Assembly (NCBI GenBank): GCA_963812015.1
Contig: CAWETI010000002.1
Location: 1,248,001 to 1,312,000, forward strand
DNA from: an uncultured delta proteobacterium
Lineage (GTDB): Bacteria > Desulfobacterota > Desulfobaccia > Desulfobaccales > 0-14-0-80-60-11
Direction of reading: 5' to 3'
Length of the DNA stretch: 64,000 nt
The stretch's first letter is position 1, and each line of letters begins with the position of its first letter. Under the pieces are notes generated by a model. The model saw only the letters and a list, made by a program, of their open reading frames with translations, was not told the DNA's origin and did no database searches. Below are positions 58,008-59,441 of the stretch, in pieces. The position numbers were made by a program, and so were the translations under genes.

Positions 58008-58146
58008 AACCTGGCAAGTCCGGTGCTCCATGCCTGCTTTTATGTCCATCTATACTCATTGTCAAAAGTTTTTTCTTATTCACCCCTCACCCTGACCCTT
58101 GTATGTTAAAGGGAACCGGTACATAGTTTGGTCATTAAAGAACCAG

Positions 58147-58300
58147 GCCATCAGGAGCAGTACTGCTCCTGATGGCGGCGTGGCAGGCCGTCCTAACCCT
58201 TGGTCCTTCAAGACCGCGGTGAGAGCGTGGCCGCCACGTCGCCCTGGCATTAACCCGAACAGTCGCCCGGGCTTTGAAGCCCGTATCTTGCAAGGACGGG
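58147..58300 (+). ncRNA. IS110 bridge RNA (5' hairpin, target-binding loop, donor-binding loop); ends approximate
   Basis: LTG CCTAACCCT (58192-58200), RTG GAGAG (58221-58225), LDG ACAGTCGC (58259-58266) and RDG TGCAAG (58289-58294), each in an internal loop closed by stems. Confidence 0.85.
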
Positions 58301-58315
58301 AGGCCAAGGCTTTTT

Positions 58316-59269
58316 ATGCACCCTGAATCCGTATTTGTCGGCATTGACGTCTCTAAGGACCAGTTAGACATCGCCATCCGGCCAGGAGAGGTCCGGTTCC
58401 GGGAGTCCAACAACGACTCCGGTATCCAGGCCCTCGTTGTCCGACTTTTGTCCCTTAAGCCCCAGCTCATCCTCCTGGAAGCCACCGGTGGCTATGAGAT
58501 CCTGGCCGCCGCCGCCTTGCGGCAGGCTGACCTGCCGGCCCACATTATTAACCCTCGTCAGGTGCGAGACTTTGCCCGGTCCTCCGGCAGATTGGCCAAA
58601 ACCGATAAGATCGACGCCGCGGTTCTGGCTCATTTTGCCGAGGCGCTGAAACCGTCCCTCCGACCCTGGCCAGATGAGCATCAACAGGAATTGGCCGCCC
58701 TCATGAGCCGGCGCCGGCAACTGGTGGAGATGCTGGTCATGGAGAAAAATCGCCTATCCATGACTTTCTCCCCACGGGTCCGCAGAAGCCTGCAAACCAA
58801 CCTCCAATCCCTTAAAGAACAACTTAAGGAGTTGGAGCAAGATTTGGACGACTTCATCCGTCAAAGCCCCATCTGGCTGGAGAAGGATCAACTCCTCCAG
58901 AGCGTCCCGGGAGTCGGCCCCTTAACCTCCCAAAGCCTGTTAGCCTGGGTGCCGGAGTTAGGCACCTTAAATCGCAAGAAGATCGCCGCCCTGGTGGGGT
59001 TGGCCCCCTTTAACCGCGATAGCGGTCAGATGCGGGGCAAGCGCACCGTTTGGGGTGGCCGGGCCCGGGTGCGGCCTCCCTTGTATATGGCTACGTTGGC
59101 CGCCTGCCGGGTCAATCCGGCCATCCGTGCCTTCTATCTCCGGTTGTTGGCAATGGGTAAGAGCAAGAAATTGGCTCTTACCGCCTGTATGCGTAAACTG
59201 TTAACCATCCTTAATGCCATACTTAAACAACAGCAACCCTGGTGCCCCCTTGCACCAGTTAACCCTTGA
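58316..59269 (+). CDS. IS110 DEDD recombinase
   Basis: VGIDVSK, LEATG, KTDKIDA (D-E-D-D), SVPGVG and RDSG (Tnp-domain Ser) motifs. Confidence 0.96.
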
Positions 59270-59441
59270 CATCTAACACAGTCGCTCTCCCCCATTGGGG
59301 GAGAGGGGAATAAAAGGAAAGAACTTTTGGCAATCGCTATAATTATGAAACGCTTCACTATCTATCAGCAGTCAGCTTTCAGCAAAACCTTTGGATTGGC
59401 GCCGGCGTCTCAGGTGGAGTGCGCCCCGGGCGCCTTTCCTT

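What the first reader, a model, noticed from the sequence alone, without database searches (positions are those of the whole stretch)
58098..59286. IS110 element with a fully readable bridge RNA whose four guides match its own target and donor
Seen: the 216-bp non-coding left end contains a perfect hairpin (GCCATCAGGAGCAG/CTGCTCCTGATGGC). Next is a stem GGCGGCGTGGC/GCCACGTCGCC enclosing an internal loop with CCTAACCCT and GAGAG around a TGGTC/GACCG hairpin. Then a stem CCCG/CGGG encloses ACAGTCGC and TGCAAG around a CGGGCTT/AAGCCCG hairpin. The reconstructed target is CCTGACC-CT-CTC: LTG matches 8/9 and GAGAG is the reverse complement of CTCTC. The reconstructed donor is ACAGTCG-CT-TGTA: LDG matches 8/8 and TGCAAG pairs with CTTGTA with one G:T. 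Established: this is the IS621 bridge-RNA architecture for RNA-guided recombination with a CT core. Inference: this is a natural bridge recombinase programmed to a different target from IS621, and a candidate editing tool.
Basis: partly seen in the sequence, partly recalled or inferred. Interest (0 to 1): 0.88.

Follow-up and report, generated by a model that had tools for sequence, protein, structure and literature searches.

The report
IS110 element with canonical bridge RNA
This is an intact, recently spreading jumping gene whose own guide RNA spells out both its landing site and its own ends, a real new example of a mechanism described in 2024, with a hint that it borrowed its target-reading module from a distant relative.

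Summary
Observation confirmed. Window 58100-59284 is an intact IS110-group element (317-aa DEDD/serine recombinase, 34% like IS621) between two CT cores, with an IS621-type bridge RNA in its 216-bp left end. The genome holds 8 near-identical copies; each site matches the guide-defined 12-mer at 10-12 positions, mostly in an intergenic palindromic repeat. Across 48 homologous guide pairs, guides follow their own flanks (left guide 4.8/7 against 2.6 shuffled; right 4.0/5 against 1.5), and the stems covary. Transcription and activity are not shown. Novelty is low: Durrant 2024's supplement lists this same repeat, in the same register, as a natural IS110 target, and IS621 was already reprogrammed with this left guide. 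The scan has reported readable IS110 bridge RNAs in other genomes. Two extras: (1) the inside of the target loop is 35/39 identical to a clade with only 55% protein identity but 19/39 to a 77% sister, suggesting natural swapping of guide cassettes between lineages (about 55%); (2) two copies elsewhere have reciprocally exchanged flanks (rearrangement or mis-assembly). New member of a known kind.

The parts
58082..58097 (+). Left half of the host intergenic repeat; 58091-58097 is the left target (positions 1-7, one mismatch to the guide at position 4)
   Evidence: Sequence; 49 look-alike sites within 5 mismatches of the 23-mer empty site, the closest ones followed by a hairpin
58098..58099 (+). 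Left CT core
   Evidence: Shared boundary of 8 copies and one stub
58100..58315 (+). Non-coding left end (216 bp); starts with the right donor (58100-58104) and the -10 box (58102-58107); encodes the bridge RNA, predicted start near 58114
   Evidence: start inferred from the IS621 register (supplement file 3); not measured
58147..58176 (+). 5' stem-loop of the bridge RNA
   Evidence: Most pair probabilities 0.98-1.0; sequence differs but a hairpin is kept in sisters L158/L159
58174..58243 (+). Target-binding loop: outer stem with bulged A58185, CGU linker 58189-91, inner hairpin 58201-58217
   Evidence: Covariation, helices 1 and 2
58192..58200 (+). Left target guide (9 nt, as in IS621; 8 nt in 37 of 53 distinct left ends)
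58221..58225 (+). Right target guide (core plus positions 10-12; possible extension by 58218-19 around a bulged U58220, inferred)
58226..58227 (+). Target-loop handshake guide; complementary to donor positions 7 and 6
   Evidence: Sequence; C:G at position 7 in 47 of 48 homologues but nearly invariant, so no covariation; role from PMC11208158
58254..58300 (+). Donor-binding loop: outer stem 58254-56/58298-300, left donor guide 58259-66, inner hairpin 58268-83, right donor guide 58285-86 + 58290-94
   Evidence: same layout as IS621
58295..58296 (+). Donor-loop handshake guide; G58295 complementary to target position 7
   Evidence: Watson-Crick match in 44 of 48 homologues, in three pair types
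58316..59269 (+). IS110 recombinase, 317 aa; D11, E55, D97, D100, S236; wedge Y257, M258, L261; ribosome-binding site 58298-303 overlaps the donor-loop stem
   Evidence: Pfam PF01548 and PF02371 over cut-off; NCBIfam NF033542 235.8 bits, cut-off 140; alignments to IS621 and ISCro4, E about 1e-36 to 1e-37; residue numbers
59266..59284 (+). Right end: -35 box (59266-71) overlapping the stop codon; only 15 bp non-coding; left donor 59278-59284
   Evidence: junction spacing of 17 bp; -35-like box in 36 and -10-like box in 46 of 49 elements
59285..59286 (+). Right CT core
59287..59308 (+). Right half of the host repeat: right target and GC-rich hairpin
15945..16000 (+). 56-bp 5' stub of the same element behind a perfect left target; the rest deleted at a short shared word

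Best explanation
An autonomous IS110-group insertion sequence that works as an RNA-guided bridge recombinase like IS621. Steps: (1) the element leaves as a circle joined at one CT core (inferred from IS621; not seen here); (2) the junction brings a -35 box and a -10 box 17 bp apart (shown in sequence) and drives a bridge RNA of about 190-200 nt from the left end plus the recombinase mRNA (inferred); (3) recombinase dimers hold open the two loops; the target loop reads 7 bases + CT + 3 bases of a host intergenic palindromic repeat, the donor loop reads the circle junction (shown by site matches and covariation); (4) composite DEDD/serine sites cut next to CT and the handshake guides favour exchange (residues and pairings shown; chemistry from PMC11208158); (5) insertion leaves CT at both ends (shown). 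Whether the circle is cut out or copied out cannot be told here; two preprints argue for copy-out (abstracts). Single mismatches are tolerated, so most copies sit at 11/12 sites.
For: 8 full copies, 0-4 nt apart, intact ORF. Mismatches of their sites to the guide 12-mer: 2,1,1,1,1,1,1,0; the 48 homologous guide pairs score on average 4.0 of 10 on 7 of these sites against 9-10 for its own. Empty sites with intact core: 0 perfect, 27 with one mismatch, 187 with two, so occupancy is 1 of 1, 6 of 33, 1 of 188 as assembled. Flanking genes are neighbours without the element in 10 of 11 congener loci. Homologues: LTG 4.81/7 against 2.56, RTG 4.0/5 against 1.52, handshake 0.92 against 0.60, donor position 10 48/48 against 0.65; 0 of 10,000 permutations reach these. 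Near relatives differ by single matched changes in guide and flank (L091, L100, L101, L157). Stem covariation. Part-by-part match to the IS621 left end.
Against: No transcript and no circle shown: no joint from right end to left end among contigs of 4 runs. The free-RNA minimum-energy fold pairs the guides internally. This copy and 6 of the other 7 have at least one mismatch. Homologues are kin, so the permutation counts overstate; ends were found with a donor-like pattern, so donor matches are partly built in (target matches are not); 28 of 110 loci were dropped because an end was not found or the flank was short.
Confidence: 0.93

Rival explanations
1. RNA-guided, but the hairpin of the host repeat is a second required determinant (dual match, as reported for ISPpu10). 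Compatible with the best explanation; it adds a step.
For: With the two swapped flanks put back, 5 of 8 sites carry a clean hairpin right of the core and 2 a degenerate one. ISPpu10 precedent (10.64898/2026.03.19.712850, abstract and section 7).
Against: One site is an ordinary intergenic stretch with no repeat and 10/12 guide match, continuous in congeners. The hairpin here covers core and right target, whereas that of ISPpu10 lies 5' and pairs with the left target.
Confidence: 0.2
2. The element targets the repeat by protein or structure recognition; the guide matches are a by-product, for example captured repeat DNA.
For: The target is C-rich and of low complexity; shuffled guides find about as many one-mismatch sites in the genome (mean 21).
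Against: Guides change with flanks across 48 pairs with unrelated targets; sisters at 74-77% protein identity have other guides and other matching flanks; reprogramming is shown for IS621 (PMC11208160 passages).
Confidence: 0.02
3. A once-active but now silent element: copies are recent but the RNA or promoter no longer works.
For: No RNA holder that establishes transcription; one copy in the window is a stub.
Against: All 8 ORFs intact, 99.4-100% identical; catalytic residues, promoter spacing and stems intact; a near-identical element at other flanks in independent DNA runs.
Confidence: 0.05

Closest known systems
IS621 bridge recombinase and bridge RNA (IS110 group; PMC11208160, PMC11208158; PDB 8wt6-9)
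   Same: Left-end bridge RNA with 5' hairpin, target loop and donor loop in the same order; CGU linker before a 9-nt left guide; bulged A; AU / looped bases / G-T wobble / CAAG right donor guide; handshake pattern; CT core; junction promoter with 17-bp spacer in the same register; DEDD + Ser + wedge. Donor differs only at positions 6-7. Both insert into host palindromic repeats.
   Different: Protein only about one third identical; right end 15 bp against 105 bp, with the -35 box overlapping the stop codon; three looped bases against two in the right donor guide; right target guide of 5 nt against 4; other target repeat; no experimental data.
ISCro4 / IS622 (PDB 9t56; 10.1101/2025.05.14.653916)
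   Same: Best solved-structure match (E 1e-37); same class of system.
   Different: 88% identical to IS621, so equally distant from this element; shown active in human cells, this one untested.
Unnamed IS110 elements in the Durrant 2024 supplementary data that target the same repeat
   Same: Same repeat, same register around CT (33 matches in file 5; target_seq44-46, 1793-1801, 2093-2104 and others); the same left donor + core occurs 313 times.
   Different: The two such bridge RNAs seen in file 4 have other scaffolds; this element's target loop was not found in the held part of files 4-5 (files 3, 4 and 6 are cut).
ISPpu10 / ISPpu9 (REP-targeting IS110)
   Same: Multi-copy, inserted into intergenic repeats, CT core, tied to host rearrangements.
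   Different: ISPpu10's target hairpin lies 5'; protein likeness to this element was not tested.
ISMno7 (IS110-like, Methylobacterium nodulans plasmids)
   Same: Closest element with an ISfinder-type name among the 25 rows listed: 49.5% identity over 97% of the protein.
   Different: Its RNA and target were not examined.

Membership tests
IS110 family | RuvC-like DEDD domain plus Tnp domain with catalytic serine | tested here: met
   PF01548 89.4 bits, PF02371 66.7 bits; NF033542 235.8, cut-off 140; D11/E55/D97/D100/S236 align with IS621 D11/E60/D102/D105/S241
IS110 family | Short core (CT) at both ends, no long terminal inverted repeats | tested here: met
   8 of 8 copies; ends inspected by eye, no repeat finder run
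IS110 group (not IS1111) | Long non-coding left end carrying the RNA, short right end | tested here: met
   216 bp against 15 bp; definition from PMC11208160 section 12
IS621-type bridge system | 5' stem-loop, then two stem-loops with internal loops | tested here: met
   not the free minimum-energy fold
IS621-type bridge system | Target-loop guides match and covary with insertion sites | tested here: met
IS621-type bridge system | Donor-loop guides match and covary with the circle junction | tested here: met
   donor is conserved and was used to find ends, so weaker than the target test
IS621-type bridge system | Handshake guides pair with the non-cognate DNA | tested here: met
   44 of 48 at target position 7, three pair types
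IS621-type bridge system | Sigma-70-like promoter formed across the junction | tested here: met
   Sequence only: 17-bp spacing here; 36 and 46 of 49 elements keep -35-like and -10-like boxes
IS621-type bridge system | Match to the published IS621 covariance model | not testable with these tools
   No such Rfam family reached threshold; the authors' model was not available
IS621-type bridge system | Circular intermediate exists | tested here: inconclusive
   No junction joint in contigs of 4 runs; contigs drop rare forms
IS621-type bridge system | Bridge RNA is transcribed and binds the recombinase | tested here: inconclusive
   No run on record as RNA holds it; one contig of a run guessed as RNA lies on 58142-58313; binding not testable
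IS621-type bridge system | Guide-programmable recombination | not testable with these tools
   Needs bench work

The most novel reading that the evidence does not exclude
The element is a natural chimera: it was retargeted in one step by taking the inside of the target-binding loop (58191-58229: left guide, inner hairpin, right guide) from a distant IS110 lineage living in the same host family, by recombination in the shared 13-bp and 10-bp outer-stem arms. Guide cassettes would then move between bridge recombinases about 55% identical, which would explain how two guides on opposite strands can change together, and would show that target loops are portable between distant orthologues. Evidence: inside 35/39 identical to L101 and L091 (ORF 574 and 572 of 954) but 19/39 and 18/39 to sisters L158 and L159 (ORF 711 and 671 of 954); non-guide hairpin 17/17 against 11/17; donor loop, linker and ribosome-binding site follow the sisters; the protein tree rejects one clade with the guide-sharing elements (p-AU 1.4e-7); 9 other distant pairs with near-identical guides have hairpins only 44-65% alike. 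Against: 39 bases, segment picked after seeing the data, run test p 0.013-0.70 over six triplets, direction unknown, one event.
Probability: 0.55. Interest if true: 0.55.

Novelty: new member of a known kind. Interest (0 to 1): 0.33.

Why it matters
As a system it adds one well-supported, compact (317 aa, 1.19 kb) orthologue far from IS621/ISCro4 to a catalogue of thousands; useful for orthologue screens but no change in understanding. The set of 8 sites gives a small natural read-out of mismatch tolerance and one insertion outside the repeat. If the guide-cassette swap is real and general, it offers a route by which bridge RNAs gain new targets in nature, a question that the passages I read leave at 'natural re-direction' without a source (PMC11187229), and it predicts that target loops can be moved between distant recombinases.

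Tried and rejected
Rfam scan: 3 matches, all far below gathering scores. Sequencing runs: no RNA holder listed. One 172-nt contig of run X20 (RNA is the tool's guess; depth 3.2; 2 differences) lies wholly on 58142-58313 while 58349-59263 has no cover in that run; one study, DNA not excluded, so not counted as evidence. No circle joint in 4 runs. Counting one-mismatch sites as an enrichment test failed: shuffled guides give as many. GC skew as a test of the flank swap: dnaA at C3:586 kb does not sit at the skew minimum (204 kb), so inconclusive. Link of the repeat to E. coli BoxC: recalled from memory, not confirmed; the passages read give no sequence and a full-text search for two repeat words gave only unrelated papers. 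Target-loop pattern in viral contigs: 0 matches. Earlier-findings look-ups by sequence and by genome: nothing. Script stopped after the permutation table and was completed; the AU column was off by one base and was recounted. Known parsing errors were left in the 48-pair set (L048 right end, L012 alignment, L034/L052/L071 register, L067/L080 left end); they lower the observed scores. The careful tree did not finish; quick trees are cited. My notebook says 10 of 13 for the flank test; the output shows 11 of 13. No structure prediction, complex prediction or large protein search was run.

Full report
Observation. The element runs from 58100 to 59284 between CT cores. Its ends are fixed without using the guides: the genome holds 8 full copies of 1185 bp, 0-4 nt apart, and one 56-bp stub at window 15945-16000. 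The ORF at 58316-59269 encodes 317 aa with both IS110 Pfam domains and NCBIfam NF033542 over cut-off. It aligns over its length to IS621 and ISCro4 (E about 1e-36 and 1e-37) with D11, E55, D97, D100, S236 and the wedge residues in place. The genes on either side are neighbours without the element in 10 of 11 congener loci. The host is probably in Desulfobaccales: a locus so labelled groups with elements from same-genus and same-family genomes (inference).

RNA anatomy. Compared by eye with the IS621 left end (PMC11208160 supplement file 3) and its structural numbering (PMC11208158 sections 7 and 8), every part has a counterpart: 5' hairpin, target loop with bulged A, CGU linker, 9-nt left guide, inner hairpin, right guide, handshake pair; donor loop with 8-nt left guide, inner hairpin, split right guide with a G-T wobble, handshake pair. 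The donor differs from that of IS621 only at positions 6-7. Joining the ends gives a -35 and a -10 box 17 bp apart, in the IS621 register. On 48 aligned sequences the 19 named pairs are kept in 97.1% of cells, 13 with changes on both sides; shuffles and slid structures do not approach this, and RNAalifold returns the same helices. Against: the free RNA's best fold pairs the guides with each other and breaks the donor loop; the open form costs about 19 kcal/mol, so the recombinase must hold it open (inference).

Guides read the sites. The 8 sites differ from the guide 12-mer by 2,1,1,1,1,1,1,0 bases. No perfect site is left empty; 27 one-mismatch and 187 two-mismatch sites are. Most sites belong to an intergenic repeat with a GC-rich hairpin starting at the core. 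Of 110 loci, 82 gave both ends and 28 were dropped; they reduce to 48 distinct target-guide pairs without the own genome. Left guide 4.81/7 against 2.56 when flanks are permuted, right guide 4.0/5 against 1.52, donor-loop handshake 44/48 against 0.60, donor position 10 48/48 against 0.65; none of 10,000 permutations reached these. Kinship inflates these counts and the donor pattern was used to find ends; the target test does not share that bias. Single-base cases are plain: relatives whose left guide differs at one or two positions sit at flanks with the same change.

Mechanism. Best supported: circle formation, junction promoter, bridge RNA, two-loop recognition, serine/DEDD strand exchange at CT, aided by handshake pairs (0.93). 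Shown here: parts, pairings, site choice. Taken from IS621 work: chemistry. Not shown: transcript, circle, activity. Cut-out or copy-out is open (abstracts of 10.64898/2026.08.31.748434, 10.1101/2025.10.25.684509 and PMC13626964). A structure requirement in the target as for ISPpu10 is possible (0.2), but one insertion lies in an ordinary intergenic site without the repeat.

What is known. The system class was described in 2024 with 5,511 RNA-target pairs (PMC11208160 section 6). Its supplementary target list holds this repeat with CT at the same place 33 times, and this left donor + core 313 times. In its screen, IS621 reprogrammed with the same 9-nt left guide worked on the matched target (log10 CPM 1.85) and fell to 0.39 with one mismatch. 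So neither the architecture, nor the target, nor access to the target is new. This element's own target loop was not found in the held text of files 4-5; files 3, 4 and 6 are cut, file 2 is unreadable, and preprint supplements are closed, so a tested relative may have been missed. The scan's notes list other readable IS110 bridge RNAs in other genomes; unchecked, and not used as support.

Possible guide-cassette swap. In protein trees the recombinase groups with L157 (90%), L158 and L159 (77%, 74%), then L005/L083, apart from the L089-L101 clade (55%); forcing it together with that clade's guide-sharing members is rejected. Yet its target-loop scaffold without guides is 98% identical to L091 and L101, against a mean of 66% (sd 11) for 228 pairs at 50-60% protein identity. 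The inside of the loop is 35/39 like L101 and 19/39 like L158, while linker plus donor loop (53 against 47 of 61), ribosome-binding region (10 against 5 of 13) and ORF (711 against 574 of 954) follow L158. Without guide positions, informative sites are 8:0 inside against 102:263 outside, but the segment was chosen afterwards and a run test gave p 0.013-0.70 in six triplets. Convergence control: of 1034 pairs under 65% protein identity, 13 share near-identical guides; the 4 with this element have hairpins 82-100% alike, the other 9 only 44-65%; 1 of the remaining 1021 reaches 94%, again this element with a member of the same clade. I put transfer at 0.55. Natural re-direction is known (ISEc11/ISXne4; PMC11187229 passages); two searches and the sections read showed no report of cassette exchange between lineages, which is a narrow search.

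Swapped flanks. Copies at C2:1146482 and C3:812637 each have one repeat-like and one ordinary flank. The left flank of the first lies next to the right flank of the second in 11 of 13 congener loci and aligns across the core in the two examined without a gap in the joined sequence near it. Put back, the two sites are a perfect 12/12 repeat site and a 10/12 non-repeat site. DNA upstream of the other joint matches C3:777-789 kb in 2 of 6 congener stretches, partly in a third. This is a rearrangement between copies or a mis-join; IS110-linked inversions are already reported (10.64898/2026.08.14.744561 passages).

Papers seen. PMC11208160: abstract, passages, sections 6, 12, 13, supplement searches and file 3 part 1. 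PMC11208158: passages, sections 7, 8. 10.64898/2026.03.19.712850: abstract, section 7. 10.1101/2025.05.14.653916, 10.64898/2026.08.14.744561, PMC11187229, PMC13604230, PMC2267715: passages. 10.64898/2026.08.31.748434, 10.1101/2025.10.25.684509, PMC13626964: abstracts and outlines.

Verdict. Real, correctly read, a member of the IS621-type bridge systems by every feature that sequence can test. New member of a known kind; interest 0.33, most of it from the possible cassette swap.

Noticed in passing
G000:C2:1146482 and G000:C3:812637 (loci L098, L109): Two copies have reciprocally exchanged flanks; congeners keep the other order in 11 of 13 loci. Large rearrangement between copies or a mis-assembly.
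   Followed up: partly
window:15945-16000: 5' stub of the same element; the rest was deleted at a short word shared with the downstream DNA, which holds a fragment like the C-terminus of a REP-associated tyrosine transposase (motif recalled, not scanned; 16053-16253). It lies behind a small pilin-like ORF (15578-15754; label recalled), and the paralogous locus at C2:909804 holds a full copy.
   Followed up: partly
window:57920-58010: A second, different GC-rich palindromic repeat just left of the element, very abundant in metagenome contigs.
   Followed up: no
window:58298-58303 and 59266-59271: The ribosome-binding site overlaps the 3' arm of the donor-loop stem, and the -35 box overlaps the stop codon; both could couple RNA folding and protein output.
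   Followed up: no
L242:1300-1700 (G040:C13) and L250:560-740 (G007:C259): Left ends of related elements with a whole or partial bridge RNA but no recombinase gene in the locus; in L242 the two ends of the stretch look scrambled or inverted. Possible solo bridge RNAs or decayed copies.
   Followed up: no
L004, L093, L103: Another distant pair with very like target-loop scaffolds (91% at 49-54% protein identity), a second candidate for loop exchange.
   Followed up: no
L034-L041, L052, L068, L071, L077: A Chloroflexota branch often has TT at the left core and CT at the right, with donor position 10 changed and the donor guide changed to match.
   Followed up: partly
G000:C2:800832, C3:450669, C3:891108, C3:887550: Four further IS110-family matches in the genome, unrelated to this element at DNA level.
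   Followed up: no
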